DNA of 60,991 bases, counting the filler, from Globobulimina sp. (Eukaryota): NCBI GenBank assembly GCA_003354225.1. It is 15 parts of 15 records of this genome, joined end to end, with 100 filler letters (N's around TTAATTAATTAA, not from the genome) between each part and the next. Parts side by side here need not be neighbours in the genome. Positions count along the whole stretch, not along the records: positions 1 to 3,977 come from PIVH01001797.1; positions 4,078 to 8,054 come from PIVH01001798.1; positions 8,155 to 12,130 come from PIVH01001799.1; positions 12,231 to 16,204 come from PIVH01001800.1; positions 16,305 to 20,278 come from PIVH01001801.1; positions 20,379 to 24,351 come from PIVH01001802.1; positions 24,452 to 28,423 come from PIVH01001803.1; positions 28,524 to 32,495 come from PIVH01001804.1; 7 more parts are not named here. The stretch is one strand, 5' to 3'. The translations under genes and the position numbers were made by a program. Positions 845-58,796 of this stretch are shown here, piece after piece. The notes under the pieces are model-generated. The model saw only the letters and a list, made by a program, of their open reading frames with translations, had not been told where the DNA came from and made no database searches. The first letter of the stretch is position 1; every line of letters begins with the position of its first letter.

Positions 845-1389
845 GTAATATGTAAGTAAGTATGCCAGTGAATGGTTTGCAACGTGTTCACCTTTTTTTT
901 CCCTTTTTTTTTCTTCCGTATGTACATATCATTAAATATTTTTTTTTATGTCTTGTTATTTTGTTTTTGTTTTTGTTTAAATGTCTGAACGGCATGCTTA
1001 CTGATTCCAATTCTGTTTGTTTTTCTATGTTTTACTCACATTGTACCTCCTTTACTTTTATTTATAATATACTGGTACCCGGTACTTGTTTGTACTTAAT
1101 GTTTCAAAACGTTTTTTAGAGTATGTGCAAGGATATCGTTCAATTTTAAAGCAGTCTGTAGTATGACTAGTATCCTTGCACACATCGACACATTAGTTCA
1201 AAGTGCTTTCTTTGTGGTCAGTCTCTTTGGTCCAAAATACAAATCAAACGTATATCAAAATTAGACAATTAATCAATTAATTGACCTGATTATTGTTGTA
1301 TACCAATCATTAAAATGGTTAGAATTTATTCTTCCACTCACTTGTGAATTATTGAAATAAAAAATTAAATTCGAAGAAATGGTACAAAT

Positions 1390-2752
1390 TCAAGGTATTG
1401 AATGAATTGTGATATTTCTGTTTGTTAATGTATCAAAATATATTTTCGCATCACATAAATTAATATCTAAAGGAGAGTCAGAATGAATTGTTGCAAAATC
1501 ATGATACAAATCACAATCAAAATAATTCCCAGCCAATCTTAGATCTTGTAAATGTTTCTTATTTCTTTTATTCACAATTTGTGTAATATTACCAATAAAA
1601 TTATTATTATGTAACCAGAGCACTTGTAATTTGTTTAATGATTGTAAATTACTGATATTTCCATGCAAGTTATTATTATCCAATGCTAATATTTGCAAAT
1701 TATGAAATGTTGAAATAATTGGTGGAAATTGTCGATTTAATTTATTATGCGATAATATTAAAATTTCCAATTCTTTACATTCTTCAAATGATAACGGGAA
1801 GCCACCTCTTATTTTATTATGCGATGCCATTAATATTTTCAATGAAATGTGTCTCCCTAAATATTGTGGCAAAAATCCAGAAATATTATTATTTGATATG
1901 CGAAATATTTGCAAATTTCTTTGTATCCCAAATGTTGATGGTATGGTTCCAGAAATATAATTACTTTCAATCTCAAATATTTTTAATGATTCAATAAAAG
2001 CAAATATATCATCATGGATTGTACCAACAAATTGATTGTTATTCAATCTTAATATTTGTAACAAGGCTAAACTTGCGATAAAATCGATATTTCCAGACAA
2101 GAAATTCCGCGATAAATCCAATTCTATCATCTAAAATTCTAAACATTTGTTATCTGAATAAAGCAAGAAAAGGGAAAACAACTTAATACGTTTTGTAGAT
2201 TGATGAATATATTCGGCACAGTCCCAGTTAGATTATTTCCGATCAGTTTCAAATGTGTTATATATCCGTTATCTGTGCAGGTTACACCATATTCAGCACA
2301 TAACGTTGCCTTAAAAAGTTTACACAAATATTTCAACAATGTTCTTGATTTAATAAAAACACACTTTTGAAAAATCCCAATTTCGAAGCCAAAATATGCC
2401 ATTTGTAGAATGATAAAATTCTTTCAATGCGTTTTGTTCTTTTTGTATCTGATAAGGAACATCTTCTTTTGTAAATTCTTCAACAAATTCATTTGGATCA
2501 TCTGCAATTTCCGAAAGAAATAAAATAAAATGAAAGTATTTTTGGTGAATAGATATATACAGAGCACGTACCATAATGAGCAAGATTATATTTCTGTTGA
2601 TTTGTTAGTTGATATTCTAATTTTGGTGCTTGATAGTTTGGTAATACTTCAATTTCAGCCGTTGTTTCGTTTGTTATGTTTGTTAGATTGGATATATTTG
2701 GAGCAGTTAGGATGTTGTACAAAGAAAAAAGTATTATTCCTACAAAGATCAT
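1390..2752 (-). CDS. Leucine-rich repeat protein (plant-type LxxLxLxxNxLxGxIP) with N-terminal hydrophobic segment and LRR cap, 4 exons
   Basis: GT-AG introns 2571-2502, 2364-2310 and 2189-2131 join the ORF pieces in frame (HY/DDP, WDFSK/ATLCAEYGVTC, LQN/MIELDLS). About 9 LRRs. The cap reads EQNALKEFYHSTNG..W..NW..YGVTC. The true start may be further upstream. Confidence 0.85.
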
Positions 2753-2874
2753 ACTTCAAATGAAAATGTTTTTTCTCAGTGAAAACCCTCAAGTCGATCC
2801 TTGCACATATAAATTATACATACGTACAGTATAATGAGTATAGAAATACATAATGCATCAATTAAAGTTAAAAG

Positions 2875-3939: not shown

Positions 3940-3977
3940 GATCGAGTTTTAATAGTTTTTTATAAACAACTGTACTC

Positions 3978-4077
3978 NNNNNNNNNNNNNNNNNNNNNNN
4001 NNNNNNNNNNNNNNNNNNNNNTTAATTAATTAANNNNNNNNNNNNNNNNNNNNNNNNNNNNNNNNNNNNNNNNNNNN
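3978..4077. other. Artificial contig-joining linker (44 N + TTAATTAATTAA + 44 N); first of 14
   Basis: Identical 100-bp linkers start at 3978, 8055, 12131, 16205, 20279, 24352, 28424, 32496, 36568, 40640, 44712, 48783, 52853 and 56923. The 12-mer gives stops in all six frames. The intervening pieces shrink from 3977 to 3969 bp. Confidence 0.98.
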
Positions 4078-4103
4078 GATCAAATACCTCAATCTTTAAC
4101 GCA

Positions 4104-5931: not shown

Positions 5932-6032
5932 AAATGATTTTGTTTTCAACTTTCTTTTGTCTTTGTTGTGTGCGGGTACTTAATTATCAGTTTTAATTTA
6001 TTTATTTATTTCAAAACTTTAGTAATTTGAGC

Positions 6033-6746
6033 ATGGCTTCGCTGGATCTGGATATCGATATCGATGCAACTGCTTTTGTAGAAGTAGAACAAGGACCAAT
6101 GTTTATGGATTATGAAGCTAGGACTAAAGCATTGAATGCAGGAGAAACACTTGAACCTTTTGTGCAGGTTAGAAATTTCTAGTTGTTTGAATTAAAATTG
6201 TGAGATGGCACAACTATGATATTTACAGAGAGCAGCACGAAACTGTCCATATTGCAAAGCAGAATTAAAAGGGCCGTGTGCTTCCCAATTTGCTGACCTT
6301 TACAAATGTGCAATAAAGAGAGGCGACAAACTTATCACATCAAAAAACTGCAAATCTTTTGCCGACATTTATATGTTTGGATCTTTTCTATTTGGTTTGG
6401 CTTTTGCAAAATCATATGGAACATGCATTGGTTTTGATTGATTTGTGTGTATAAAATACATAGAGAGTGTGTGGAGATTGATTATGTAAAGAGGCAAACA
6501 TTGTGTCCAATGTATATGACATTTTTGAAAACAAACATAGAGTCATCGCCATGCAAGAAGCAGTTGAAAATGATGAAAAAAATGTGTTGGAAGCCGAACA
6601 AAACGCGGAGGCCAAATAACCAACAAATTAATTCAATCTGCATTAATGCTACAAATGAATTAAGGCGATGTGTGCAAGGAACATCGCATATGTATAATTA
6701 CATGGGATTTTGGAGGAAATACGATGGGGGACAAGCACCTGTCTGA
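6033..6746 (+). CDS. GCK/CHCH-type protein with two CX9C-type helical hairpins (187 aa), 3 exons
   Basis: Introns 6168-6228 and 6375-6463 give CPYC-x7-C-x9-C...C-x9-C followed by CP...C-x10-C...C-x9-C. The second CX9C only forms across the predicted splice, which supports the model. Confidence 0.75.
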
Positions 6747-6856
6747 TTAATCCTTGCTTTTACATCTCAGAACTACTATGACTGCCATCTCCTGTTCTTC
6801 TTAGTTTTTGAAGTAGTCGACAAATTAAAAAAACTTTTTTTCCAAATCATCAAAAC

Positions 6857-8054: not shown

Positions 8055-8422
8055 NNNNNNNNNNNNNNNNNNNNNNNNNNNNNNNNNNNNNNNNNNNNTT
8101 AATTAATTAANNNNNNNNNNNNNNNNNNNNNNNNNNNNNNNNNNNNNNNNNNNNTCGCCAATGTTTACAAGAAAAGGTTGCCGAAACTGAATCTGAGTTG
8201 GCCAAATTTATCGAATTAACCATATCAAAACCAAGTTGCGTCCATTCTATGCACAGAAATTATTTATATCCTCAATGTACCGCCACAAAAATATAAATTT
8301 ATTCAATAAGTATACTTTATACCAATTCCATTCGCCTTCCACTATGATTATACCAATGAAGTATACGATCATTCGCCTTCCATTCCCATTTTAAGGCGGC
8401 GCAAATGAGCAGAGTTTATACC

Positions 8423-8494: not shown

Positions 8495-8539
8495 TACCAC
8501 AATACAACATATAATATTTTATATATATACAAACAACAG

Positions 8540-12538: not shown

Positions 12539-12569
12539 TTAACTAGTGTGTACATTTGCGAATATTAAC

Positions 12570-28585: not shown

Positions 28586-29024
28586 ATGGTACATTATTTA
28601 AAACATTTATAGCTATGGATGATGAGCACAACATATAATTATAATATGTAGGCACAAGAAGCTCCAGAGAAAAAATCAGCATTTGAACAAGCAACAGAAT
28701 TCGTCAGAAATTTACCAAAAGAAGGCGATTTAGACAACGCCACAAAATTAGACTTCTATGGTGTGTATATTTTTTTTTTTCATGATTTTTATGCATCTCA
28801 AACATTCTGAATGTCAATGATTAGCATGTTTTAAGCAGGCGACAGTGGGTAAATGTTCAGAAAAAGGAGGTTCCCAACCATGGGCTGTCCAAATGGAGGC
28901 TCGCGCAAAATGGGATGCATGGGCTGCGTTGGCAGATTTGTCCGCTGATGATGCCAAGCAAAGATATATTGATAAATTGATTGCAGCAACGAAGAATGAC
29001 AAAAATAAATTTGTTCCACAGTAA
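28586..29024 (+). CDS. ACBP: Acyl-CoA-binding protein (103 aa), 3 exons; absent from the ORF track
   Basis: ATG-only first exon and introns 28589-28651 and 28761-28824 give FEQATEFVRNL..KLDFYACFKQATVG..ARAKWDAW..AKQRYI. Confidence 0.92.
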
Positions 29025-29185
29025 CATATGGAAAATGCCATTTGATTTTTTTTTTCTTAATTTGCAAATTAATCCTTGCACGTCAGTCATATGTAAAAGT
29101 TTTTTGTTAGCACAGTCAAAAGTATTTAGCCATTCCCACCATTTTGTATAATTAAGATGTGAAAAGAACACACGTTGTGAACAAG

Positions 29186-30706
29186 TTAAATATCATTTTT
29201 TTTGTGATTATCCGTCAACTCAACCTCTGTTTCCTCCGGAAGTGCACCATCAGTGTCAGTCTCATTCTCTGTCTCAGTCTCTATTTTCGTAGCATCACTT
29301 TTCTTATTTAATGTTTTTTTCAAATTTGCCATAGAATTTGATAACGCCCTCGACTTTTTCATGCAATCGCTGGTATTACAGACATAATCAAAGCACGGAT
29401 CATAGGCATTCTGCCATGTTTTGTCGCCTAATGTGGGAAATTCCGATTGCACGATACTTGAATGCACGCCATATTTATGTAAAATAGTTTTGCTTTGATC
29501 AATAATGGTCATCTTATCATGCAATATGTCACATTCATCTTTGCAATATTTATCCGTATGGTCGTTATCGATCCAATGCGGATCAATGATGAGATGAACC
29601 GTCGCCATATAATATCCAGTCTTTACTTCCCAACAATGCAATTCATGCACGTTCAGAACACCTGAGATCGAACATAACTCCTTCTCCATCTCACGGATCA
29701 CAGCAGAATCAAATGGCGATTTATCTAATAATATATTTGCACTTTGCCGCACCAATGGCCATGCCGTACGACTTAGAATCAGTTAAATATCCCTTCAGTA
29801 CATATAAAACAGCAAAAATACGACAAAAACAGACCTGATTAACAGAACAATCAACAGCGTACAAACAGGGTCAATGTAAGTCGTCCACCATCCTGACGTA
29901 TATTTAATGATCAGCGCTGACACCATAACAGCCACAGAACCCAACAAATCACCCAAAATATGCAAAAAAACGCCTCGTATATTGAGGTTTTCTTCGTGTA
30001 CGTGTTTCCGCTCTGGATTGGAATGCGAATGTGCTTCATGACTATGGTTATGACTGTGGCTGTGGTCGTGATCATGTTTCTGTTCATCGAGTTCGATATA
30101 GATTTGGATATCAACCACATCAGAAGCCGCAGCATGGCCATGTTCATGCGAATGACCGTGCGAATGTCCATGGTGCCCAAATATGAATAAACCGATTAAA
30201 TTAATAAATAAACCCAAACCGCCAACTATTAGGACATAATCTACGTTTTCGATGGATTCGTTAAAAAATGCAATCCTTTGAATGGCTTCTAATCCCATAA
30301 TAAAACAGGAGGTCAATAGTATGGTTCCATTGATTAATGCGCCAACAATCTCATATCGCATATAAACCATTGTGTGTTGGAAAGAGTTTTCCTGCGCCTT
30401 TCCATTGGCCATTCGATGTGCGAAATAGCCGATAATTAAGGCAATTAAGTCTGACATCATATGCAATGCGTCGGATAATAAGGTTAATGATCCGGTCGCA
30501 ACGCCAGTCACTATTTCTGCCAACATCATGGTTGTGGTTAATATGGACATTAAGATAAAGCGATACGAATCGTGGGCGCCTGCGGACTCTAATTCGTGTA
30601 TGGTCGAATTGAATAATCTATACCTTCTGCGCGAGGCAAAGGGTCTATTTGCAGCTGTTATTAAGGCTACTTTTATTGATGGTGACTTCGATCGATGACG
30701 CTCCAT
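29186..30706 (-). CDS. CDF/ZnT zinc exporter (ZnT1/Zrc1-like), 2 exons
   Basis: Metal-site motifs LLSDALHMMSD and FLHILGD, His-rich loop, C-terminal VHELHCW. Intron 29834-29772. Confidence 0.93.
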
Positions 30707-32595: not shown

Positions 32596-35500
32596 CAGTT
32601 TACGTTGAAATTCACTGCCAAAGGCACCAAATGTCTGCATGCCGAAATCCTGGCCACTTCTCTGAAGAAAGTGCATGTGACTTCGCCTGTTTTTTTCCAA
32701 AACACGTCGACGTTATTTTGCCCAAATTGCGACAGCGACACTGATAATAAGCTGTTGGCATTGATACCGTATACCGGCCATCATAATATTCACAAAGTGC
32801 CGGTGTTCTTTGATGGTGGTTCGGGCCGCTATCGATTGGAAATAAACGATACCAACATCGCGCATTTGCTGAATCATGACATCAATATCGGCCAAGACAG
32901 GAAAGTGAGTGTGATGCACGGCAACAATTTAGGGCGGACCTATTTATTTTTGATTGACTATTTCAATCCGGATAACTTCGCCTATATCAATGTGGAGGTC
33001 GAATTGGTGCGGAAATGGGAGTTGGCTCCCAATGCAGTGAAGGAAATATTGATTAACAGTTTCGTGGAAATGCCCATTATGATTCGGGACCAATTTAACC
33101 GTAGATTCAGTTCATTGGACGGCATGAAACAAGTTATTAGCACAAGCTCACAGAATCAAAAAGTGAGCCTAGAATTTGTAGCGCCGAGCATCAACCAACT
33201 GATTGAAGCCCATTTCAATCCAACCGCCGCAGCAAAGCCACACAAAACCAACAATACGCAAATTATCAAGGACCTCAAGTCCAACATATTGCAGAAAGTG
33301 CAGCATAATTTACAGAAAAAGACGCAACGCATAAACTGCAGCGACATGGACGGGAAGATCATGGTTCGTGGCGTCAGCAGCGGCTATGATGCGTTTGTGA
33401 TCAGTCTGCAAAGAGATATTTCAGAGCTGCAACAAAATATGAACTCTGATATGTTCGTCTCGGTGTACAAAGAAATCAAACCGCTGCATAAAGCCGTGGC
33501 CATTGCCATTAATATCAATGAGCCGTATACAATGCATTGGGACTATGGTCCGCTGCCTTGGCCGATCAAAGAAGTGATTCCCGTGGACCCGCAATTCCTG
33601 CATCCATTACTGGTAAATATCCCGGCCATATCCACTGCGAATGCCGCGTTGAAGGATGAAAACAAAGACTTTGGCTTCCGATACAATGGCAAAACGTTAG
33701 AATTTGTGTGCTACGAAGAGTTTCATTCCTTCATCGAGCTGACAGTCAGTAACCGCGAACTGGACACGTTGGCCCATCCGGTTCTGTGCACTGTGGCCAT
33801 CGAAGTTTATTGCTTCCCGCAATTTCAATTCAATTCGTCCAAAATGGAGATGGGCGTCGGGACCAGAAAGAATGCCAAGGCGTTGTACCCCGACTGGGTC
33901 AAATCGGAGAACATATCGTCAGAGTTCTTTGTGGAGATTGACCAGATTCAGACGGATGGGGAGCGGGACCGAGTGGTCTCCGTCGTGAATAACGACAACT
34001 TAATCGCAAAACGGTTGGGCTCCTCGCTGATTACCGGCACTTTGCAGCATCCCACGCAGAGAGTGCATATTCACGAAAGCGGCTTTAGCGACACTTTGGA
34101 GATCATTGTGTTGTTCAAAGGCTTTACGATGGAGATGCCGTCATATTGGATCATCAACGGATTGGATGAGATCGCACACATTGAGGGCTTGGACGGCGAC
34201 CATCATATTCTGCCATTTCGGCACAACTTTGACGACGTCTTTGTGGAATGGAGCAGCGAAGACGCAAATATCATCGAATTGTTATCCATTTTGCCGGCTC
34301 AGAGCCAGTATAACACGGAAATGGCGGACAAAAAGAAGGAAAGAAACAGCGTCGGCACGGGTTTGTCGGTGCGATTGGCGGCGCATTCTGTCGGTTTGGT
34401 GAATATTGTGGCGACCATTTCGTTGCGTAATCCGCCCAAAAGCATCAAAATGAAGACGCAGTTCCAATTGACGCAGACCATCACCGTGATACCGCGCGTG
34501 GTCTATCCCTGTAATTCCATCATTTTGCAGGCAAACTCGTCCTTGCCATTGTCGCCCATTTTCAATCCGGACACCAACGTGGCGGGCATCGGTCAGATTT
34601 ATAATGTGGAGCATGGCTACTCGCACAGCGACGGCTTTGTCTATGTCTCGAACAAGAAATTGAATGTCGAGTCCAGTGCGCCCACGGCGGAGAATGTCGC
34701 AGTTACATTGATTTTGCAGTCGCCGTCCCTGAAAAAGCCGCATGTGGCCAAACAATACCCGTTGACGCAGGCGGCCTCATTGATAGTGAGCATTGTGGAG
34801 CCGACTGGCCTCAATTTGCTGCAAAGCACCGTCACAAACAACCCCAGCGAGGACATTCTTTATTCCTTCTCGCAGTCTGTGGGCGGCGCTGACGACGATT
34901 CGCTGCCATTTTGGTCGTACAACAATCGCGTGGCGGAGGAGCAGGTGGCGCAGCAAAAGAAATACAGCAAAACGGAGAATGTTCTGTGTGAAAAGCAAAA
35001 CATTACTTTGAAAATCGCCATTTTGGACGAATTGGGGCGAGAGCTGCATGTCATCGATGAGTGCAAAGTGGTGTCCAATGACACGTCGATTGTGTTGCCG
35101 CGGAAAGACATTTTCATTTCGAGTGAGTCGATTGGAGGGCCCCAGTACGCCAATGTTTATTTGGATGCGTTGCAGGCGGGATTTGCCACTGTCACTTTCC
35201 GGCACGATCAGCAAAAAGATTCCTATCGACAACAAGCAGCGGCGGCGTCTGCGTCTGCGTCAAACCCATACTACGTCTACGACAATCCTACCTTTTTGCG
35301 CACCGTGCTGACAATCCGGGTTTTGTCCGCGGTGCAATGCGAAGAGGACTTTGGGATTATTTATCAAAGCGGAGGCGGCCGGGCAGCCAATTTAAATTTA
35401 AACCAAACTGCTTCTCTGAAAAGCATGGCCGCAAAAGCGGCGAATCTCAAACAGCAGCAACGCGAAAAGAGAAGAAATTGGCAGTCCGCCACTGCAAAAA

Positions 35501-35811
35501 TGGGCAATGCCACCAATATTAATCGGAAAGCGTTGATTGTAATTTTTTGTGTGTTGATGTTCGTATTCATCGTTGGTTGTACCTGGCAAAGTTGTTGGGA
35601 CATTTTTGGATTTGGGAGCTCGAGGACGCAGAATGAGAATGAGAATGACAACAATGTGGGGAATGGCAATGCGCTGCGTGCCATCGGCTATGACCAAAGC
35701 AACATACTGCCGCCGGCTGCTTTCAATCCCAATCCCTATGCCACCACCAACACCGCCAACAATTCCTTCCAGCAGCACCCGTTCAACACAGCAAACTCGT
35801 TTTATATGTGA
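32596..35811 (+). CDS. Large single-pass protein with tandem Ig-like repeats, nucleoporin GP210/NUP210-like (5'-truncated)
   Basis: Over 1000 aa of beta-rich sequence with repeated I.D..GR/NR.F and W.S.D/SND..IV motifs. One TM helix near the C-terminus and a P/N/S-rich tail. The family call is from resemblance only. Confidence 0.55.
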   Translation, partial: QFTLKFTAKGTKCLHAEILATSLKKVHVTSPVFFQNTSTLFCPNCDSDTDNKLLALIPYTGHHNIHKVPVFFDGGSGRYRLEINDTNIAHLLNHDINIGQDRKVSVMHGNNLGRTYLFLIDYFNPDNFAYINVEVELVRKWELAPNAVKEILINSFVEMPIMIRDQFNRRFSSLDGMKQVISTSSQNQKVSLEFVAPSINQLIEAHFNPTAAAKPHKTNNTQIIKDLKSNILQKVQHNLQKKTQRINCSDMDGKIMVRGVSSGYDAFVISLQRDISELQQNMNSDMFVSVYKEIKPLHKAVAIAININEPYTMHWDYGPLPWPIKEVIPVDPQFLHPLLVNIPAISTANAALKDENKDFGFRYNGKTLEFVCYEEFHSFIELTVSNRELDTLAHPVLCTVAIEVYCFPQFQFNSSKMEMGVGTRKNAKALYPDWVKSENISSEFFVEIDQIQTDGERDRVVSVVNNDNLIAKRLGSSLITGTLQHPTQRVHIHESGFSDTLEIIVLFKGFTMEMPSYWIINGLDEIAHIEGLDGDHHILPFRHNFDDVFVEWSSEDANIIELLSILPAQSQYNTEMADKKKERNSVGTGLSVRLAAHSVGLVNIVATISLRNPPKSIKMKTQFQLTQTITVIPRVVYPCNSIILQANSSLPLSPIFNPDTNVAGIGQIYNVEHGYSHSDGFVYVSNKKLNVESSAPTAENVAVTLILQSPSLKKPHVAKQYPLTQAASLIVSIVEPTGLNLLQSTVTNNPSEDILYSFSQSVGGADDDSLPFWSYNNRVAEEQVAQQKKYSKTENVLCEKQNITLKIAILDELGRELHVIDECKVVSNDTSIVLPRKDIFISSESIGGPQYANVYLDALQAGFATVTFRHDQQKDSYRQQAAAASASASNPYYVYDNPTFLRTVLTIRVLSAVQCEEDFGIIYQSGGGRAANLNLNQTASLKSMAAKAANLKQQQREKRRNWQSATAKMGNATNINRKALIVIFCVLMFVFIVGCTWQSCWDIFGFGSSRTQNENENDNNVGNGNALRAIGYDQSNILPPAAFNPNPYATTNTANNSFQQHPFNTANSFYM

Positions 35812-35931
35812 GGCCATTTTTGATTTGTTTTCAAACTCCTTTATTTAATGATTTTTCTTCCCGATTTCAGAACACATAAATCATTTATATTTAATTTATA
35901 CAGGAAAAAAAAATTAATTGTTTTGAAGAAG

Positions 35932-36567
35932 TCAAATTTTAACGCCAAATATCTTAAATTCTTGAATCTTTATATAATAACTACCACCATAATTATCCAA
36001 TATCTCCAATTTGAATTGCTGATATTTTTTGGATTTGATAGTCTTCCATTTTTGAGCTATTCTGTTGCGCGCATTATCATTACCAACAATGTCCAAATTA
36101 AATGACTGGAGTGTTTGAACAGTATTTGAGCAAATAAATATTTGTTCATTGAGTTCAATCCATTCATTCAAAGCACTGCTTCCCACTTTTAAACGAAATC
36201 TCTTCATTGAAAATGTAGTACCTGACCCTCCGATATTAACTTGTAATTTTGTCGGATAATACGTATCATTATTATTTATATCAAAAATAATCCAATCATC
36301 GGTTATTTCATACGCTGTGCTTGCATAACACTGACTGTCAGATGTTAGCACTCTGTCCGGTACACAGCCGTCATAATGACCTTTATGAGAATGAATTTTC
36401 ATTGAAATATGTTCCTCATTGGAAAGATCCAACCATTTCCCGGCATGCGCAACAACAATATATTTAATATTTGATTCAATAGTCATATTTAAAGGTTTTT
36501 GAATGGAGTGTTGTATCATAAATTGATATTTCTTATTAAATTTAAAGACATCTTGCATTTGAGCTGA
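35932..36567 (-). CDS. Galactose-binding-like (APC10/DOC or F5/8-type) domain protein (probably 5'-truncated)
   Basis: DWIIFD..PTKLQV..KRFRL..W..LQSF..FKLEILDNYGG..IQEFKIFGV is a jelly-roll pattern. Confidence 0.6.
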   Translation of the reverse strand, partial: SAQMQDVFKFNKKYQFMIQHSIQKPLNMTIESNIKYIVVAHAGKWLDLSNEEHISMKIHSHKGHYDGCVPDRVLTSDSQCYASTAYEITDDWIIFDINNNDTYYPTKLQVNIGGSGTTFSMKRFRLKVGSSALNEWIELNEQIFICSNTVQTLQSFNLDIVGNDNARNRIAQKWKTIKSKKYQQFKLEILDNYGGSYYIKIQEFKIFGVKI

Positions 36568-41400: not shown

Positions 41401-42766
41401 ATGCATAAACCAGCTATATCAGTTTGTTGTGGGGAAGGAATATGTTATTGTTATCACTGTTCATTAATCAATGCAATCCGAGCCAATAAAATTGCTGATG
41501 GAATTCCTCATGATTTGCTCTATTCGATTACCGATTACATTGGAATCTATGCAGTCTATGGACACTTATTCAACAATAAATATCAAATACTGCCTCCATT
41601 ATCAAATTCGATGGACAAACCCGACAGAATTTATATAAATGGAAAGCATGCTTTTTTTTATTCACAAAATAACAAATTAGAGCATGCGTACGTTACGACA
41701 AATACATTTAGTATTCCATCACAATTGCAATTCAACACTACGCAATCAATGTTTTCTTCTATAACCGACAGAGTGCGACAATTGTTTGGTCTCCGCCAAA
41801 CCACAGCCATTGATGACAAATTTATCATCGGTAAAACCAACAACATTGAGGCTACAAAGTTTATTTTGGTCAATACTATTTCTTTGGAATTGTTTGAAAT
41901 TGATTTTACGAATTTTCATTACAAAATATCGCCGATGCCACTTCTCAGCGCAGAATTAAAATCTTCGCAAAGCTCAAAATCTGACAATAAAAGATGTCAT
42001 CCATATGGATCATAATTCAGTTGTAGGAAATTATTGGTTTTTGTTCGAACAGGGTTCATTGATTCAAATCCCTGATATTTTGGGACAATTTGCTCATTCA
42101 TTAAATAATAATTACCCCGGCAATATTCGTGGGTTCAGGGCAGTCAAACTCTTAAGCAACGCACACGAGATTGCAGTGGGTAGAAGTCATCAATTAATTG
42201 TTGATAAAGATAGAAATTTGTGGGTTTGTGGCAATCCATGTTACCAGCCAATGCAGCCCGGTTTGTCATCAATTGGAGCTGATCGACATTTTGTTTGGGG
42301 GCAAATTCCATTGCATCCATTCCCTTTTCCAGACAAATTGTTTCAAAATAATAATGTTAAAATTATCCGATGTGGGATTGATGCGGATGTTTCGTGCGTT
42401 ATTTTAGAAAATGGACTGTGTTTTTTATTTGGTAGACTGAAATGTAAAAATGGAGTTACTGTGATTAATTTCAGCTATTTCACAATGGATAAATATGCAT
42501 CGCGGACTTTATTCCAAAGTTTTGAGGATTGTTCGGGAGTAAAAATTGTGGATGCAGCTGTTGACAGAGAACGTGTTGTTTTATTGGACAATGAATCGAA
42601 AGTGTATGTTCTGGGAATGATACATTTGCACAATAAACTGGCAAAAATGTTTACAACTCCATATCAAATCAATAGGCATGACATTAATATTTTGAATGTA
42701 AGGCACAAAATTGTTAAAATACTTAGCTGTGGGACGAGGAGTTTTTTTGTTACAAAGATTGAGTGA
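41401..42766 (+). CDS. F-box-like + RCC1-like repeat protein with one frameshift
   Basis: IPHDLLYSITDY, then EIAVGRSHQLIVDKDRNLWVCG, IIRCG..SCVILENG, VVLLDNESKVYVLG and ILSCG..SFFV. Frame change at about 41958. Confidence 0.65.
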
Positions 42767-42801
42767 GTTCCTCGCACTTTGATACTAGTTTTGAGTAAAC
42801 A

Positions 42802-44253
42802 ATGGCAGAGGAAAGGCCAAATAAACAACGCGAAATTATAACAGTAAATTGTGGTGGCTGTGGTGTAAATTTGGGTGAGAACATATTAGAACAGTTTGCG
42901 TTGGAACATGGTATATCATCATCAGGATACAAAGAATTGGCAACAAAGTATGATTCAACAATACCAATATTATTTGATGAAACTTGCAAAGGCAAATACA
43001 TCGCACGGTCATTATTTACAGATTTGGATCCATATTCAATTAATAATATTAAAAAACGATGTTCATACAATTCATTATTACATCCAGAATATTTAATTAA
43101 TGGCAATAGCGGTGCTTGTGTTAATTTTGCAATGGGACATTATACAAAAGTTACTTATAATATTAATATATATTTCATATAAAATAACGTTAACACTTAA
43201 CAGGGCAAAGAAATAATTGAATCAATAAACAATGCATTACGAACATTAGTAGAGGCCGCAGATAATGTACAGGGCTTTTTATTCAATCATTCATTGTCAG
43301 GAGGAACCGGCGGTGGTTTAGGAATGTTAATTTTAGACCGGATTGCAACCGATTATAGAAAAAAAATCAAATTTGGAATGAGTGTGGTTTTTAATCCAAA
43401 TCGAGCAACTTCTTCGATGGAAATATATAATGCATTGTTATGTCAACATTGGTTATTGGATCACACGGATGTTGATATTGTTTTTGATAACAGAGCAATC
43501 GCAAATATTTGTAAAAATGTATTAAAAATTGACGATCGTGCTGCTACGTATAAGGATTATAATAATTTAATCACAAAGTTAATGAGTGATCTTACTGCAA
43601 CTTCGCGCTTTGCCATAAATGAAATATTTGGTTCAATTCATATGGATATGGTACCGTTTCCACGGTTACATTTTCTAATGTCTTCAATGTGGCCGTTAAT
43701 ACCAAACAAAAGTCAAAATATTATATTCAAAGATGATATACAGACTCTGACGAATCAATGCTTAGTGGAGAAATATTTTATGGTTGATACACCGGATTTT
43801 GATCCATATGAAGATAAGAATATGGCAGTATCATTTTGTTGCCGTGGCGAGAATATTAATAAATATATGTCGCAGTGTAATGCATCCATGCAATTTATGA
43901 GAGTGAATAAGAAATTTACTTTTACTGAATGGAGTGCCGCAAAACCAATGGTTAAATTTGTCGATGTGAAAGCTAGCAAAGCAAAAAATGATAATATGTT
44001 AATTACAGATAAACAAATATCAATGATGATGAATAATACTTGCATTTCAAGATTATATTCAGACAGAATTGGGAAACAATTTGATATATTATACTCAAAA
44101 AGGTCCTATGTACATCATTATGTTTCCGCTGGAATGCAAGAAGGTGAATTTGCAGAAGCTAGAGAAGATTTGGGTTTCTTAGAAAAAGATTATTTAGATG
44201 TTGTATCTGATCAAGTCACTGATGATTATGATGATGAGGATGATGATTATTGA
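42802..44253 (+). CDS. Highly divergent alpha-tubulin (retarian alpha-2-like), 2 exons, 465 aa
   Basis: Intron 43150-43203 joins GHYTK/GKEII. Motifs QREII, HSLSGGTGGGLG, VPFPRLHF and EGEFAEAREDLGFLEKDYLDV, with an acidic tail ending in Y. Confidence 0.92.
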
Positions 44254-44329: not shown

Positions 44330-44574
44330 TACATTGAATTAAAAAGTCGTCTAAATTTAAATTAACCTTTTGATTCACTAATATGGGTGAATATAATTCA
44401 TGAAACTGACAGCAAAAAGAAAGAAAAAAACGTTAATTAATATATAAATAGATAAGACTGATAATTTGGTTGGCGGTGTCAAGTAGAAAATAAAACGTTT
44501 CCTTAATTCAATGTATTTTAATTCAATGTATAATACAATATAAACTTAAACGACTTTTTATATAATTCAATGTA
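44330..44574. mobile_element. AT-rich MITE-like inverted-repeat element
   Basis: TACATTGAATTAAAAAGTCGTCTAAATTTAAATT (44330-44363) pairs with the reverse complement of 44537-44574 (TACATTGAATTATATAAAAAGTCGTTTAAGTTTATATT). AATTCAATGTA is reiterated at 44505-44610. Confidence 0.6.
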
Positions 44575-44811
44575 TAATTTAATTTAATGTATTAATAATT
44601 CAATGTATTTTAATGTACAATATAATAAGAATAATTATAGTGCTCGCAATAGATAATATAACAGATATGCAAATTGTTCGGGATGGTATAAGTGCGTCAT
44701 TACGTTGTGTTNNNNNNNNNNNNNNNNNNNNNNNNNNNNNNNNNNNNNNNNNNNNTTAATTAATTAANNNNNNNNNNNNNNNNNNNNNNNNNNNNNNNNN
44801 NNNNNNNNNNN

Positions 44812-48939: not shown

Positions 48940-48977
48940 ATTTCAAGCTTTCTAAATATACTTTTTATTTTTTACCA

Positions 48978-52952: not shown

Positions 52953-53397
52953 TTTCAATTGCAACAATTTCATCTGAAATTCTTTGGCTTTGAACACAAT
53001 CCCTAACAATATGCACATTATATCCATTCTTTAATAAATCCAAAACAGTTTGAAAAATGCAAATATGTGCTTCTATTCCAATAATAATAACATTTTTTCT
53101 GCCCAATTTTGTTAATTCATCATTGACAGCATTCGTACACATTGAAAATTGTGTCTTTTGAATAACTTTGGTTGCATGTTTACTTATTTGTAATTCCGTG
53201 AAAGTCGCACCAAACACTCTTCGAACATGTTCCGTTGCGATAATTGGTATATCCAGTTCTTGACAGCAATGGATTATAAAGGATTGGTTTGCTATTAATT
53301 TATCCACATCGCGAAGCAATCCGCGAAATAACTCTTGTGAGTCACAAACCAACAAAACGGAATCCTCTGGCAAAGGCATTACACATTTGTGTGCCAT
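52953..53397 (-). CDS. Isochorismatase-domain protein, ISOC1/ISOC2-like (3'-truncated)
   Basis: Motifs LLVCDSQELFR, ATEH, KTQFSM and GIEAHICIFQTVLDLL. Confidence 0.9.
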
Positions 53398-53462
53398 GAT
53401 GTTTACACTGTATGCTACTTAATAAAGATTTAGAGGCTCAGCTTTTTTTTGTGAGGAAAATC

Positions 53463-54452
53463 TTAAACTAATTGTGTTTGCAAAATCTTACACCAAGAAT
53501 TAGGTCGTGATAGAGACATTGCTGGGAACCAACAGTCCACAGAGTCCACACAAGGTAAATTGGGTAATTTCATCATATAATCAGCGATGTCGTCTATTCT
53601 TTCTTGATTTGTCTCAAAATAAAACGACAACACTCCATTATCTTTGCTCGATAAATCAACAATCATTGTTATTATACATTCATCAATAAACTCAATTTCT
53701 GGTTTCTGATCATCCCAATCCGTCTCACAAAATCTGTGATTATCTCCTAAATATATTCTATTCGAACAAGTATCAATTCCGTAACAATCTAAAATGCCAT
53801 TTTTATCCATTGCTCGTTTATTGAAGCGCATTGTTTCCGATCTTGAAGAAGTTACACCGATAAAATTGCCAGTCACTCGAGTACAATATAACGAATATTT
53901 GATTTCAACTCTCATTGGATAACATATCCCACGCTCAAACCGTATGGATTTAAAAGGTTTCTTCAATGTTACCAGAGATTTATCCTCTGAGAGTATCATA
54001 CTTTTTCCTTTATATTTATCTGACCACTTTCCAATATATGCATATGTGTGTTCTGCGTTTTTCATTAAATCAAACTCATTCAGCAATTGTTGGAAGCGCA
54101 GTTTTGTACAAGTTATATTTTCATTGAATGTATGTTGTACATTGATAATTTCTTCAACATCACACTCATTGCCATGTTTGCTTCCATTTAATTGAATGGA
54201 GTTAATTGATTTATCTATGTTTGCTTTATATTCATCAATCCGCACTTTCATCCAATTGCACAAAACATTTGTGTTGTAATGCATCGATTTCTTAGCGGAT
54301 TCTACATAATCAGTACTTTCCAGGATTGTTTTGCATTTAACCCTTTGAAGGCATGGTGATTCTGGTTGGATGTGTTGACTGTTGAGCATTGAGAAGATTA
54401 TGATCCATTTGCAAAGTGTCATATTTATTGAATGACTGCAGTATGCTATCAA
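53463..54452 (-). CDS. Coiled-coil + SPRY/B30.2-like domain protein
   Basis: WSDKYKGKSMILSEDKSLV, FIGVTS, ITMIVDL..LSFY and WFPAMSL. Start codon uncertain. Confidence 0.6.
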   Translation of the reverse strand: MIAYCSHSINMTLCKWIIIFSMLNSQHIQPESPCLQRVKCKTILESTDYVESAKKSMHYNTNVLCNWMKVRIDEYKANIDKSINSIQLNGSKHGNECDVEEIINVQHTFNENITCTKLRFQQLLNEFDLMKNAEHTYAYIGKWSDKYKGKSMILSEDKSLVTLKKPFKSIRFERGICYPMRVEIKYSLYCTRVTGNFIGVTSSRSETMRFNKRAMDKNGILDCYGIDTCSNRIYLGDNHRFCETDWDDQKPEIEFIDECIITMIVDLSSKDNGVLSFYFETNQERIDDIADYMMKLPNLPCVDSVDCWFPAMSLSRPNSWCKILQTQLV

Positions 54453-54572
54453 TAATTACCAATGATGTTATTGATGTATGTCGATTTACAGTTGACATTG
54501 TCAGAATACTTCAAAGTTTTCTGAATTATTTAAAACGGCTAGTAATCATTGATATAATTAATAAATTATAAT

Positions 54573-55118
54573 ATGTTTGCTGTTGTAATGAGTTTGTTAA
54601 CCATATCAGTAACAGTAAATGGCTTTGATTGTAATCACATTGATATGGGATGGAGTGTAATACATCCAATTGGCCCATGCGTTATTGGCAGAAATTCAGC
54701 ATCCAATGGTATGATGTCAATGCAGCATCATTGCATTGATGAATGGACAGCACAATCTCGCATTTATACTACTAATAATTGCAGTGGCCATGATTTTGAA
54801 ATTGTAGCAACTCACAACTGTCGGTCAAATACAACATCCAATGTAAAGTGTAATTGTTCATTTAACACAGATGAACAATGTTCATTGGTAACAGATATTC
54901 AATATGTTAAACAAAGAAATGGTGAATGTGATAAATCCCAATTTACGGATAAAAGAACGTATATTGTTCAGTCACATGAAGTTCCAAAATCTTATATTGA
55001 TTCGAATTGCTTTGAAAGACAGTCAGATGGAAGTTTAGTAATCAATGCAATGTGTATTATTTTGTCAAATATATTAACAATGTTTTATATATTTAGATGG
55101 AAAGGATTTTGTGAGTAA
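54573..55118 (+). CDS. Small secreted Cys-rich protein
   Basis: Signal peptide MFAVVMSLLTISVTVNG and about 11 Cys. There may be a short intron near 55052-55096. Confidence 0.65.
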   Translation: MFAVVMSLLTISVTVNGFDCNHIDMGWSVIHPIGPCVIGRNSASNGMMSMQHHCIDEWTAQSRIYTTNNCSGHDFEIVATHNCRSNTTSNVKCNCSFNTDEQCSLVTDIQYVKQRNGECDKSQFTDKRTYIVQSHEVPKSYIDSNCFERQSDGSLVINAMCIILSNILTMFYIFRWKGFCE

Positions 55119-55332
55119 AACTGTGCCATTTTGGTTCCATAAATTAGCAGCAAGTCATTTTTGAACCACTGTAAATGAATTATTTGTTATTGTTTGTTGA
55201 ATATGGGGTTCAATGTCGCAATCAAAACTGAACCACTATATTAACAATAATAAATATGTGTGATGTGTTTGTAATATATATACTTTTAGTGTAGATTCCT
55301 CCCGTTAATAAATAACAAAAACACTATTAAAA

Positions 55333-55380
55333 ATGTGCAAGGATACGAATGCAAGGATATCAATCTGCTGTGCAAGGATA
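55333..55380 (+). promoter_or_regulatory. Cluster of three (G)TGCAAGGATA motifs
   Basis: Copies at 55335, 55350 and 55370. The same motif occurs at 1125(+), 1172(-), 2797(-), 29072(-) and 58241(-). Confidence 0.6.
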
Positions 55381-55427
55381 CCACTGTAAGTTTTTCAAAA
55401 AACAGCTTGTTGCTTCACTAGTTTACA

Positions 55428-56693
55428 ATGGGTTGCAAATGTTCGAAACAACAGACACGGAAATTAGAAAAAGCATCGTCACGAAGAAATCACTTGGCAT
55501 CACACCCCTTAATTATTGAACGTAGAGAGAAAATTCCTGACACAATTGAAGTAATTCGGGAATATGTTGATACGGGAAAAGGTCATTTGATATCAACCTC
55601 TTGTTTCCGTTCAAAATCAATGAATAAAAAACAATTAAACGGAATGATATTTTATTGTCAAGGATATGGTTCCTGCACAGAGTGGACAGATACGGACATT
55701 GGTATTAATTTTGTGAATCGGGGCTATATATTCATAACACACGACCATTATGGACATGGTTGCAGTGACGGCGACTGGTTAACTTCTCCCACATTATCCC
55801 ATGATACATACGTCGATGATGCTTCATATATCTTTGAAAGAGCAAAAAGGAAATTTACACCGGAACTGTACATCGAAAATAATAAAAAATTCCATTATTT
55901 TTTACTGGGACATAGGTATTAATTCATTTTGATCGAATGTGCATAGAATGTGATGAAATTCCATCGCATTCACAGTCACATTCCATTCACATTCGACCAC
56001 CACACACTGACCAGTCTTGGCGGAGCAATCACCATTGAAATATCTAAACGATACACCTCATCTTCGTATTATGGCAATGTTGAAAAGCGTTTGCAACAAA
56101 ACAAGGATGGGAATGTTGCAAAAACAAATGATTATATTCCAAAAACATTGTTAGAATCATATTGCAATAATGATGTAAACATAAATACAAATAACATGGA
56201 ACAGGACTCATTATTTGGATGGGATGGCATGATTTTGTTGGCCCCAATGGTTAAAATAAGGGATGGTATGAAGCCGCCCGCTTTTGTAATAAAAATTGGG
56301 TCATATTTAGCCCCGTTGCTGCCTGATGCCCGTATTGTGCCGGTGAGCAATTTTGCTGTTAAGTTGACGCGCGATGAGGCCTATTTTGATATGATTAAGA
56401 AATCGCCGCTGTCGTATGACGATAGGCCCGCATTGAGGACAGCAATGCTTTTATTGGGGTTTACTCAGCACATTGAGCAAGAAATTGATTTTGTGCAGTT
56501 ACCGCTGTTGATAATGCATGGAGAGAAGGATCAATTGACTGATCCAGGAATGTCACAATTATTTTATGACAAATGTTCTTCGAAAGATAAGAAAATTAAA
56601 ATCTTTGGTGATGCGTTCCATACACTGTTACTCGATACGTGTCGTAATGAGGTGTTTGAGGAAATTGATAACTGGATTTTAGAGAGGAGTTAA
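55428..56693 (+). CDS. Monoacylglycerol lipase-like alpha/beta hydrolase with MGCKC acylation motif, 2 exons
   Basis: Intron 55916-56014 splits the nucleophile codon and restores GHSLGG. Motifs DHYGHGCSDG, LIMHGEKDQLTD and AFHTLL. Confidence 0.92.
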
Positions 56694-57447
56694 TGACAAA
56701 AATTTATACATATATTTAAATGAATTATAATATTGCAAAGGAGACGAAACAATTTCCCTTTGTGCTAGCTTCAAAAAACAGATACTTCAATTTTCTTTGC
56801 TTAGTCATCCAATTCCGAAACTTTTAATTGGTGCAAAATTATGTACTCATCCACTGAGTTACAACTATTGAGGCAAACCAATAAAATTAACTTTAAGAAA
56901 TATTTATTTGATATATTTAATGNNNNNNNNNNNNNNNNNNNNNNNNNNNNNNNNNNNNNNNNNNNNTTAATTAATTAANNNNNNNNNNNNNNNNNNNNNN
57001 NNNNNNNNNNNNNNNNNNNNNNATCGGCAAAGCCAACAAATTTGGAATATGAATCATTTTTTATTGATAATATAATATGGGATATCCGCTTGTTAATGAA
57101 TATTGGCAAAAGAGGTAAGTTAGTGGCGCGGTTACATAATGTCAATGACTCTGAGAAAGATATAACCCGATTATTAGATTTATCACCGGTTACACCAAGA
57201 CATGTTCGCGAAGGCGGTGGGCCTGGAACATTATTAGCTGCCTCTGGAGACCGCGCTATTTATTGTCATAATATGATGGATATATTGTTGGATGCTCTGT
57301 CTATGGGGACTTTATTTTAATATTTCTGTACAATATTTACTTCATTTTTCCACCATTGTTTGATTATAATGTAAAGTAACAATAGAAATCTAAATCTAAA
57401 TCTAAAACCTTACTAACTAAATCTTTTTAACTTGCTCTAAGCTCTAA

Positions 57448-58796
57448 ATGGCTTTAACATATATTGAACAGTTAATTGTAGAGTTTGCAGATTGTTCGGA
57501 TAATTTAAGGAATTGCAAGGAATTATACGAAAAGAAATTATGGCATCAATTAACAGAAGAACTCGATAAATTAATATTAACATCACAATCTAAAATTGAT
57601 TTTATTCGTTTTGAAGCGAAATTTATTCGCGATTTCCGCAAGTTTATGAATACGTTGCGTTATGGCTCCATTATCATACAAATTGCGGCCAGGTCCTATT
57701 CACAAAAAATAATAAATGAAATCCAAGGAATTGCGTTTTGTGAACAAGCATTAAGTTCCATTGAAAATGATGAAAAAAAATCAGAAAAAGAACATTTTGA
57801 TGATAAAAAAATTGATAATACACAAACAAAATTATTAATTAAAACGCAAGTTGCTTTATTTGAATTAAACAGAATGTGTGACGATGATAATTCGTTTAAA
57901 ATTGCTAAAGCCAAATTAGATGCCATTTGGAGTGAAATAGAAGCCTCAATTCGGGCTTGTCCCCCTTTGATATATTCGCGATATCATTTTGTTTGTTGTA
58001 AATTATGGGCATCGCAACAGAATAACGACGAATTAGCATCGGATATTTCATGGAGTAATATGTTTTACAAACATTCAATGTCTTATCTAGGATATACACC
58101 GCTAAATAAAATTAATAATAAAGAAAAATGGGCAAATGATATTGCTTTGGTCGCTTTGGTTGCTCCCAATTTTTACGATTTCTCAGAATTAGTTTAGTTT
58201 TTCTTTTTTTTTATTTTATTTTATTTTATTTTATTTTTATATCCTTGCACTTAACGGTATATATATGTATTATTAATATATTATTTATTTAATAGTCCCT
58301 TCATCCAATTATAAAATCATTGGAAAATACAGCTTCCGAATGGTTATTAAACATTCTATTCGCATATATTTCGGCAGATATTAATTCATACAATGATGTG
58401 ATATCAAAATATGATAAAAATATTTCAGAAAATAATATTTTACAAACAAAAGAGGCAAAAAATATTTTAAATGAGAAAATAAGATTATTGAGTTTAGTGA
58501 GTTTAGCTTTCGACAAAGCATCATTTGAAAGAATTATTTCATTTTCAGAGATTTGTTCAGTAACACAATGTGATGATAATTCAGTGGAATATTTAATTAT
58601 GAAAGCAATGTCTTTATCATTAATCAAAGGAATTATTGATGAAATTGATAAAACCGTCCAAATCGAATGGGTAAAACCTGCGATATTAGATATCAAACAA
58701 ATGGAAGCAATCAATAAAAAAGTTACAGTTTGGATCAATAAAATACAAGAAACTCAAAAAGATATTGCTCCTCAACTTAATACATTATTACAATGA
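57448..58796 (+). CDS. RPN9: 26S proteasome lid subunit RPN9/PSMD13, 2 exons
   Basis: YEKKLWHQLT, FYKHSMSYLGY, YDFSEL/SLHPIIKSL (intron 58192-58295) and the PCI motif VEYLIMKAMSLSLIKGIIDEI..WVKP. Confidence 0.92.

What the first reader, a model, noticed from the sequence alone, without database searches (positions are those of the whole stretch)
1123..58250. Recurrent non-coding motif GTGCAAGGAT, oriented sense and 3' of genes: candidate termination/3'-end or boundary signal
Seen: exact GTGCAAGGAT at 1125(+), 1172(-), 2797(-), 29072(-), 55335(+), 55370(+) and 58241(-), plus TGCAAGGAT at 55350, on four unlinked contigs. All exact copies are non-coding. Every intergenic exact copy lies about 70-280 nt downstream of a stop codon on that gene's own strand. 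This includes convergent gaps (1125/1172 and 29072), where a promoter role is unlikely. The single intronic copy (RPN9) is antisense. Assuming ~30% GC, chance expectation is about 0.05 copies in the window, but the motif was chosen post hoc. Inference: the site of a polar DNA-binding roadblock/terminator or a 3'-processing factor in a genome with very short intergenic gaps. I know of no description of it. One partial copy (ATCCTTGC, 6750) is antisense to its upstream gene.
Basis: partly seen in the sequence, partly recalled or inferred. Interest (0 to 1): 0.75.

Follow-up and report, generated by a model that had tools for sequence, protein, structure and literature searches.

The report
Rigid intergenic DNA word, likely protein-binding site
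A ten-letter DNA word recurs far too often, and only between or inside genes rather than in coding sequence, in a very gene-dense microbial eukaryote; it is most likely the landing site of one DNA-binding protein at gene boundaries, and the claimed link to gene ends is not yet shown.

Summary
GTGCAAGGAT occurs 7 times exactly (0.11 expected) on 4 of the window's 15 unlinked ~4-kb pieces. An unbiased k-mer scan of the ~10.2 kb of non-coding DNA returns its core GCAAGGAT as the top non-simple 8-mer: 9 copies against 0.15 expected, and none in 49.3 kb of coding DNA. The word is rigid: 7 exact and 1 one-mismatch copies, with two-mismatch copies at chance level. It is not part of a longer repeat. 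It folds into no common RNA structure.

The "sense and 3' of genes" rule is weaker than it looks. It is automatically true in convergent gaps. At the four informative loci the orientation is 2 sense and 2 antisense. Both sense tandem sites also lie 44-48 nt before the next gene's ATG and 9-10 nt before a shared T-run/A-run tract. Only 5 of 26 gene 3' flanks carry the word, so it is not a general 3'-end signal.

Best reading is a site for a sequence-specific DNA-binding factor at gene boundaries, acting next to promoters and possibly also as a roadblock. No whole genome was held, so the function is unresolved.

The parts
1124..1135 (+). Motif copy (TGTGCAAGGATA), left arm of a perfect 12-nt inverted pair in the 545-nt convergent gap between the 132-aa gene 446-844(+) and the LRR gene (stop 1390-1392, -)
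1171..1182 (-). Motif copy, right arm of the inverted pair (35 nt between the arms); 208 nt after the LRR gene stop
2797..2806 (-). Single motif copy in the 122-nt tandem gap. It lies 68 nt after the aldo-keto reductase stop (2875-2877) and 44 nt before the ATG (2752) of the LRR gene, on the same strand as both
2765..2787 (-). T-run/A-run tract (GGTTTTCAC..AAAAAACA) starting 9 nt after the motif, shared with the lipase promoter
6750..6757 (-). Partial copy (GCAAGGAT; 8 of 10). It lies in the tandem gap between stop 6744-6746 and ATG 6857 and is antisense to both flanking + genes
29072..29081 (-). Single motif copy in the 161-nt convergent gap. It lies 104 nt after the zinc-transporter (cation efflux) stop at 29186-29188 (-) and 47 nt after the ACBP stop at 29022-29024 (+)
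29057..29072 (.). Perfect 16-nt palindrome TTAATTTGCAAATTAA abutting (1 nt overlap) the motif copy
55334..55380 (+). Cluster of three direct copies (55335 exact, 55349 one mismatch, 55370 exact). They lie 170-205 nt after the corrected stop 55162-55164 of the upstream gene and 83, 69 and 48 nt before the ATG 55428 of the MGCKCSK... Hydrolase_4 (lipase-like) gene
55390..55404 (+). T-run/A-run tract (GTTTTTCAAAAAACA) starting 10 nt after the last motif copy. The listed RNA contigs of the downstream gene begin at 55422, 55437 and 55459
58241..58250 (-). Single motif copy in the middle of the RPN9 intron (58192-58295), antisense to the host gene

Best explanation
GTGCAAGGAT (extended form T-GTGCAAGGAT-A) is most likely the DNA recognition word of one sequence-specific DNA-binding protein of this very gene-dense eukaryote. 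The protein would occupy the short non-coding spacers at gene boundaries.

In tandem gene pairs the word works as an upstream, promoter-proximal element. It sits in sense orientation immediately (9-10 nt) in front of a T-run/A-run core tract and about 45-60 nt before the ATG. It can be single or a homotypic cluster of three.

Copies in convergent 3' gaps and in an intron fit a 'general regulatory factor' type of protein. Such a protein keeps a spot nucleosome-free wherever it binds. It may therefore also start antisense transcripts or block read-through there.

Shown: enrichment, restriction to non-coding DNA, rigidity of the word, absence of a longer repeat and of a shared RNA fold, and the positions relative to stops, ATGs and RNA contigs.

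Inferred: that a protein binds it, that it activates or positions the adjacent promoter, and any roadblock effect.
For: Enrichment and location:
- 7 exact copies against 0.11 expected.
- The core 8-mer is the top non-simple word in 10.2 kb of non-coding DNA: 9 against 0.15 expected.
- There are 0 copies in 49.3 kb of coding DNA.

Rigidity:
- In non-coding DNA there are 7 exact, 1 one-mismatch and 4 two-mismatch copies. Shuffles give 0.01, 0.34 and 4.8.

Arrangement:
- The word occurs in both orientations. It is found in tandem gaps, convergent gaps and an intron, as expected of a DNA-level site.
- Two loci carry clusters: three direct copies within 45 nt, and a perfect 12-nt inverted pair.

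Promoter-proximal position at the two sense tandem loci:
- The motif starts 54 nt (LRR gene) and 58 nt (lipase gene, last copy) before the ATG.
- The sequence between motif and ATG aligns better than 980 of 1000 shuffles, sharing GKTTTTCA and AAAAAACA.
- The RNA contigs listed for the lipase gene start at 55422, 55437 and 55459, downstream of that tract.

Rival features absent:
- Flanks do not align beyond about 12 nt.
- There are no Rfam or tRNA hits in the window.
Against: - Two of the six loci (1125/1172 and 29072) are convergent gaps with no gene start to serve.
- None of the 6 divergent (start-to-start) gaps in the window has a copy (after removing one antisense-ORF artefact). This is the opposite of what a simple promoter element predicts, though 2/5 against 0/6 is not significant.
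- Only 2 of 15 putative ATG-upstream regions carry a sense copy, so it is at best a subset element.
- An almost invariant 10-mer is unusual for ordinary transcription-factor sites.
- The sample is only 6 loci, and the promoter-spacing argument was noticed post hoc.
- No binder, no transcription start mapping and no conservation data are available.
Confidence: 0.45

Rival explanations
1. One reading: a polar DNA-bound roadblock or terminator (gene-boundary element). A bound protein stops RNA polymerase II that reads through the upstream gene's poly(A) site. This protects the next promoter in tandem pairs and prevents collisions in convergent pairs.
For: - Copies occur in 2 of 5 convergent gaps and 0 of 6 divergent gaps.
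- All 7 intergenic copies of at least 9/10 match lie 68-280 nt after a same-strand stop.
- After the LRR gene and gene 54573-55164 they lie 80-140 nt beyond an AATAAA, so behind the likely cleavage site.
- Spacers are so short (38-122 nt from stop to next ATG in several tandem pairs) that interference control is plausible.
- Yeast Reb1p, Rap1p and Abf1p sites do exactly this while also being promoter elements (PMC5052057, abstract and passages read).
Against: - The 'sense' rule is trivially true in convergent gaps. Informative loci split 2 sense and 2 antisense.
- 21 of 26 examined 3' flanks lack the word, including tandem pairs only 38-110 nt apart, which would need it most.
- For yeast GRF roadblocks no preferred site orientation was found (PMC5052057 passage), so polarity is not a feature of the nearest known system.
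- No nascent-RNA data are available.
Confidence: 0.22
2. An RNA-level signal in 3' UTRs, such as a binding site of an RNA-binding protein or a cleavage/polyadenylation element, read in the sense orientation in the mRNA of the upstream gene.
For: - All intergenic near-exact copies are sense to an upstream gene.
- A rigid 8-10-nt word is typical of some RNA-binding proteins.
- A lineage-specific downstream poly(A) element exists in Blastocystis (PMC4159000 passages).
Against: - Only 5 of 26 3' flanks have it, at variable distance of 68-280 nt. The Blastocystis element is in ~96% of genes at a fixed 4 nt from the poly(A) site.
- Contigs covering gene 54573-55164 reach only to 55232 and 55272 (+9 loose letters), 18-27 nt after the AATAAA at 55249 and 54 nt or more before the first copy.
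- The two antisense copies (58241, 6750) and the inverted pair are unexplained.
- Five of six strands folded show no stable structure around the word beyond the inverted pair itself.
Confidence: 0.05
3. Footprints of a mobile element. The word would be the terminal inverted repeat of a tiny MITE-like element (1124-1182 as an intact 59-bp copy), with the other copies being solo ends.
For: - A perfect 12-nt inverted pair is separated by 35 nt.
- The near-invariance of the word could reflect recent spread.
- A 10-nt direct repeat ACCACTGTAA flanks 55175-55379.
Against: - No similarity is found beyond ~12 nt among the nine copies.
- No second arm within two mismatches lies near 2797, 29072 or 58241.
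- No matching target-site duplication flanks 1124-1182 (sequence).
- A direct triple array within 45 nt is not MITE-like.
- The copies are confined to non-coding DNA, with consistent spacing to two ATGs.
Confidence: 0.07
4. Another chromosomal function of a bound factor in intergenic DNA, such as a replication-origin recognition word, a recombination hotspot or a replication-fork barrier.
For: - It is a rigid long word confined to intergenic or intronic DNA at roughly one per 8.5 kb.
- It is present in convergent gaps.
- In yeast the same bound factors also stop DNA polymerase delta (PMC5052057 abstract).
Against: - There is no direct evidence of any kind.
- The fixed spacing to two promoters would be coincidental.
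Confidence: 0.08

Closest known systems
Binding sites of yeast general regulatory factors (Reb1p, Rap1p, Abf1p): promoter elements that also act as Pol II roadblocks (PMC5052057; abstract and passages read)
   Same: - Short, well-defined DNA words found in promoters, 3' regions and inside transcription units.
- Bound factors open chromatin next to promoters and physically stop read-through polymerases.
- This fits a word found both just upstream of ATGs and in convergent 3' gaps.
   Different: - There is no sequence resemblance and no binder is known here.
- The organism is unrelated and unidentified.
- The yeast study found no preferred site orientation for roadblocking.
- Here neither binding nor roadblocking has been measured.
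Blastocystis TGTTTGTT element downstream of poly(A) sites (PMC4159000; passages read)
   Same: A lineage-specific conserved word lying downstream of gene 3' ends in a compact protist genome.
   Different: - The Blastocystis element is present in ~96% of genes at a fixed 4 nt from the poly(A) site and is thought to act in RNA.
- The present word is at 5 of 26 3' flanks, at 68-280 nt from stops.
- It also occurs antisense and in an intron.
De novo cis-regulatory motifs of compact parasite genomes: Theileria (PMC2612703, abstract and passages read) and Entamoeba sense/antisense promoter and poly(A) motifs (PMC7677554, abstract read)
   Same: - Lineage-specific words found by over-representation in very short intergenic regions.
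- In Entamoeba, motifs on the opposite strand at gene 3' ends set the starts of antisense transcripts. This offers a reading for copies in convergent gaps.
   Different: - Those motifs were defined genome-wide with transcript maps.
- Here only 6 loci in 60 kb are available.
- The word itself was not found in the searched literature.
Pol I terminator boxes bound by Reb1/TTF-I-family proteins (recalled from general knowledge, not checked in a call)
   Same: Long, rigid DNA words, often in tandem arrays, that stop a polymerase in an orientation-dependent way.
   Different: - Those sites act on Pol I, downstream of rRNA genes.
- No rRNA gene is in the window.
- Polarity is not supported by the informative loci here.

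Membership tests
Promoter-proximal transcription-factor / GRF binding site | Over-represented word restricted to non-coding DNA | tested here: met
   9 copies against 0.15 expected in non-coding DNA, and 0 in 49.3 kb of coding DNA
Promoter-proximal transcription-factor / GRF binding site | Positional preference upstream of transcription/translation starts | tested here: inconclusive
   Two loci lie at -54/-58 from the ATG with a shared downstream tract. However, 0 of 6 divergent gaps have a copy, 2 loci are in convergent gaps, and only 2 of 15 upstream regions have it
Promoter-proximal transcription-factor / GRF binding site | Bound by a protein; nucleosome-free in vivo | not testable with these tools
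   No chromatin or binding data, and no genome in which to search for the factor
Polar Pol II roadblock / terminator | Consistent orientation relative to the upstream transcription unit | tested here: not met
   The four informative (non-convergent) loci split 2 sense and 2 antisense. The sample is tiny, so this lowers the claim but does not exclude it
Polar Pol II roadblock / terminator | Polymerase or read-through 3' ends pile up just upstream of the site | not testable with these tools
   Only assembled RNA contigs of one 4-kb piece could be laid
General poly(A)/3'-processing signal | Present at most genes at a fixed distance from the cleavage site | tested here: not met
   5 of 26 3' flanks carry it (5 flanks were cut short by a piece end), at distances of 68-280 nt from the stop
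Structured RNA element / terminator hairpin | Shared stable fold around the word | tested here: not met
   Only the inverted pair at 1124-1182 folds (z -2.8 and -4.0). The other four loci give z between -1.2 and +1.5. There are no Rfam hits
Dispersed repeat / MITE family | Similarity extending beyond the word; paired ends; target-site duplication | tested here: not met
   Only 8 invariant columns are found, with a weak preference at -1 and +11. There is one inverted pair and no partners elsewhere

The most novel reading that the evidence does not exclude
The word is an orientation-dependent gene-boundary element of an ultra-compact eukaryotic genome. A dedicated DNA-binding protein would sit on it immediately in front of promoters and in the middle of convergent 3' gaps. 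There it would stop RNA polymerase II arriving from the upstream gene. This would let genes lie only 40-160 nt apart without transcriptional interference, making it a Pol II counterpart of the polar Pol I terminator boxes.
Probability: 0.2. Interest if true: 0.7.

Novelty: new member of a known kind. Interest (0 to 1): 0.42.

Why it matters
If the density seen here (about one copy per 8.5 kb, about one per kb of non-coding DNA) holds genome-wide, this would be the most prominent cis-element of a poorly sampled, very gene-dense eukaryote. Its closest protein relatives in the databases are unnamed. The word would give a direct handle for finding the binding factor by pull-down. It would also help in asking how promoters and terminators are packed into spacers of 40-160 nt. 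If the roadblock reading proved right, it would be a rare case of a sequence-defined Pol II boundary element outside yeast.

Tried and rejected
- Whole-genome counting: no genome is held for this window.
Piece 14 alone was then laid, which used the only call. Pieces 1, 8 and 15, with the convergent and intronic copies, could therefore not be examined. No DNA run was laid to test conservation.
- No RNA holder was listed by the run search. The four runs laid nevertheless carry spliced contigs.
- No listed contig covers 55273-55421, the part holding the motif cluster, in any of the four runs. The contigs come from strains 1-10% different from the window, so this is not used for or against any reading.
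None resembled this organism. There was no blastn hit to the window and only weak ABC-ATPase tblastn hits. The matches were coding repeats or chance.
- Organism identification failed. For ABCE1 the best hit was 84% to an unnamed EukProt entry, then about 65% to diverse eukaryotes. For the TMTC-like protein the best hits were 59-78% to unnamed entries, then about 33% to animal TMTCs. An atlas look-up of one orphan protein gave only SPRY-like leads.
- Literature string searches for the 10-mer, its reverse complement and the 9-mers combined with 'intergenic', 'conserved motif' and 'compact genome' returned only primer-type or unrelated hits. No listed paper held the word together with those terms.
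- Earlier findings of this scan: nothing for this genome, its relatives or these sequences. A word search gave only unrelated phage and bacterial repeats.
- Other recurrent 10-12-mers in the window lie mostly (36 of 39 occurrences listed) inside long ORFs, so most are coding or compositional words and not companions of this motif.


Full report
**What the window is.** The 60,991 bases are 15 unlinked pieces of about 3.97 kb, joined by N44 + TTAATTAATTAA + N44 separators. The DNA is AT-rich, about 33% GC. It carries spliceosomal introns and is extremely gene-dense. My ORF/Pfam-based mask.3 kb coding and only 10.2 kb non-coding. Several tandem gene pairs have only 38-122 nt between stop and next ATG. 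No whole genome is held. The organism could not be named. Its ABCE1 is 84% identical to an unnamed EukProt entry and about 65% identical to everything else.

**The observation.** Chance gives 0.11, and 0 of 100 shuffles reach 7. The one-mismatch copy at 55349 and the 8/10 copy at 6750 are also real.

- **Post hoc choice.** After simple A/T words, the core GCAAGGAT/ATCCTTGC is the most over-represented 8-mer, with 9 observed and 0.15 expected. Overlapping words fill the next ranks.
- **Coding DNA.** The same 8-mer occurs 0 times in the 49.3 kb of coding sequence, where about one is expected.
- **Other recurrent words.** Other recurrent 10-12-mers of the window are mostly inside ORFs.
- **Rigidity.** In non-coding DNA there are 7 exact, 1 one-mismatch and 4 two-mismatch copies. 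Shuffles give 0.01, 0.34 and 4.8. Essentially only the exact word is enriched.
- **Flanks.** Aligned copies share nothing beyond the word, except a preference for T before it (5 of 9) and A after it (6 of 9). The copies are therefore not pieces of a longer repeat.

**Anatomy of the six loci.**

- **Locus 1125+/1172-.** This is a perfect 12-nt inverted pair, TGTGCAAGGATA / TATCCTTGCACA, with 35 nt between the arms. It lies in a 545-nt convergent gap. The left gene (ATG 446, stop 842-844) is real. An identical 132-aa protein and relatives down to E 7.6e-10 are in the protein library. The right gene is an LRR protein with its stop at 1390-1392.
- **Locus 2797-.** It lies in a 122-nt tandem gap, 68 nt after the aldo-keto reductase stop and 44 nt before the ATG of the LRR gene, all on the minus strand.
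- **Locus 29072-.** It lies in a 161-nt convergent gap between a cation-efflux (zinc transporter) gene and an ACBP gene. It abuts a perfect 16-nt palindrome.
- **Locus 55335/55349/55370+.** Three direct copies lie within 45 nt in a tandem gap.
- **Locus 58241-.** It lies in the middle of the RPN9 intron 58192-58295, antisense to the gene.
- **Locus 6750- (partial copy).** It lies 3 nt after a stop and 99 nt before the next ATG, antisense to both + genes. No plausible splice donor is present, so I read this as a tandem gap and not an intron.

**The polarity claim.** 'Downstream of a stop codon on the gene's own strand' is automatically true for any copy in a convergent gap, whatever its orientation. 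Only tandem and intronic loci are informative. They split 2 sense (2797, the 55335 cluster) and 2 antisense (6750 partial, 58241). By gap type, a copy is present in 2 of 5 convergent gaps, 0 of 6 divergent gaps and 4 of 32 same-strand gaps. These counts come, after dropping one convergent/divergent pair created by an antisense ORF over the tubulin gene. The 2/5 against 0/6 contrast favours a 3'-side element but is not significant with these numbers. Only 5 of 26 examined 3' flanks carry a sense copy within 300 nt (5 flanks are cut short by a piece end). Tandem pairs only 38-110 nt apart have none. The word is therefore not a general termination or 3'-end signal.

At both sense tandem loci the word is close to the next gene. 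The motif starts 54 nt before the ATG for the LRR gene and 58 nt before it for the last copy at the lipase-like gene. In both, a T-run/A-run tract (GGTTTTCAC..AAAAAACA and GTTTTTCAAAAAACA) begins 9-10 nt after the word. The motif-to-ATG stretches align with score 13, against 5.6 +/- 3.1 for shuffles, and 20 of 1000 shuffles do as well. A similar tract without the word precedes the isochorismatase-family and ABCE1 genes, so the tract is found upstream of 4 of 15 starts. This was noticed post hoc and rests on two loci.

**RNA data (piece 14 only, one call).**

- The four runs laid are spliced. They show GT..AG joints at 55033-55096 and 55914-56012, so they are RNA from strains 1-10% different from the window.
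- The first intron moves the stop of the upstream gene to 55162-55164.
- Contigs covering that gene reach 55232 (X7) and 55272 plus 9 unaligned letters (X8). That is 18-27 nt after an AATAAA at 55249.
- Contigs covering the lipase-like gene begin at 55422 (end of the X8 contig), 55437 and 55459 (adapter-flanked), downstream of the T/A tract.
- No listed contig covers the cluster itself.

**Other rivals tested.**

- **RNA structure.** Only the inverted pair folds (z -2.8 and -4.0). The other four loci give z from -1.2 to +1.5. The window has no Rfam family and no tRNA.
- **Mobile element.** There is one inverted pair but no longer similarity, no partners at the solo copies and no target duplication.
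- **Related DNA elsewhere.** A metagenome scan for paired copies gave 118 stretches, none related.

**Interpretation.** The word is short, nearly invariant and confined to non-coding DNA. It occurs in both orientations, in homotypic clusters, and in every class of non-coding DNA. This is best explained as the recognition site of one sequence-specific DNA-binding protein. Two further steps are inferred, not shown: that a protein binds, and that it acts on the adjacent promoter. The positions at the two tandem loci favour a promoter-proximal role. The convergent-gap copies argue that this is not the whole story. They fit a factor of the 'general regulatory' type, whose sites in yeast sit in promoters, 3' regions and gene bodies. 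Those yeast sites both organise promoters and block polymerases, without a preferred orientation (PMC5052057). In Entamoeba, motifs at gene 3' ends on the opposite strand set antisense transcript starts (PMC7677554 abstract). That is another way to read the convergent and intronic copies. An RNA-level 3' signal like the Blastocystis TGTTTGTT element does not fit. That element is in ~96% of genes at a fixed 4 nt from the poly(A) site (PMC4159000).

**Novelty and limits.** I found no description of the word. As a kind of thing, a lineage-specific cis-element in a compact protist genome is familiar (for example Theileria, PMC2612703). Everything rests on six loci in 60 kb. The genome-wide, transcript-end and conservation tests listed under next steps are needed to decide between promoter element, boundary/roadblock, or both.

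Noticed in passing
window 54422-54573: Very compact bidirectional promoter. A contig of the minus-strand gene (ATG 54422) reaches up to 54522, and a contig of the plus-strand gene (ATG 54573) starts at 54544. The two divergent transcripts therefore appear to start within about 22 nt of each other.
   Followed up: partly
window 42764-42804; 53397-53465; 58794-58905: Tandem genes are separated by only 35 nt (RCC1-like stop to tubulin-like ATG), 65 nt and 106 nt. An isochorismatase-gene contig ends at 53426, only 36 nt beyond the upstream gene's stop. Promoters must therefore overlap the neighbour's 3' end.
   Followed up: partly
window 44330-44610: A cluster of AATTCAATGTA words (4 direct copies at 44505, 44520, 44564 and 44597, and one inverted at 44330) lies in the 460-nt non-coding tail after the tubulin-like gene. 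One more inverted copy is at 15682. This could be a second candidate element or a local tandem repeat.
   Followed up: no
window 55165-55174 and 55380-55389: An exact 10-nt direct repeat ACCACTGTAA occurs directly after the upstream gene's stop and directly after the last motif copy, bracketing the whole 3' UTR plus motif cluster. It could be chance or the trace of a duplication or insertion.
   Followed up: no
window 32596-36567: This piece has 44.6% GC against about 33% elsewhere. It is nearly filled by one 1071-aa open frame (cut at the piece start) with no Pfam match. Its origin and nature are unexplained.
   Followed up: no
window 55033, 58192: Two of the three introns seen start with GTTTAGT (55033-55096 confirmed by spliced contigs; 58192-58295 in RPN9). 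This is a possible extended donor consensus.
   Followed up: no
window 55176-55177: RNA contigs of two runs carry 11-14 extra letters here, in the 3' UTR of gene 54573-55164, and differ from the window by about 1-10% overall. Several diverged strains or species of this organism therefore exist in public data.
   Followed up: no
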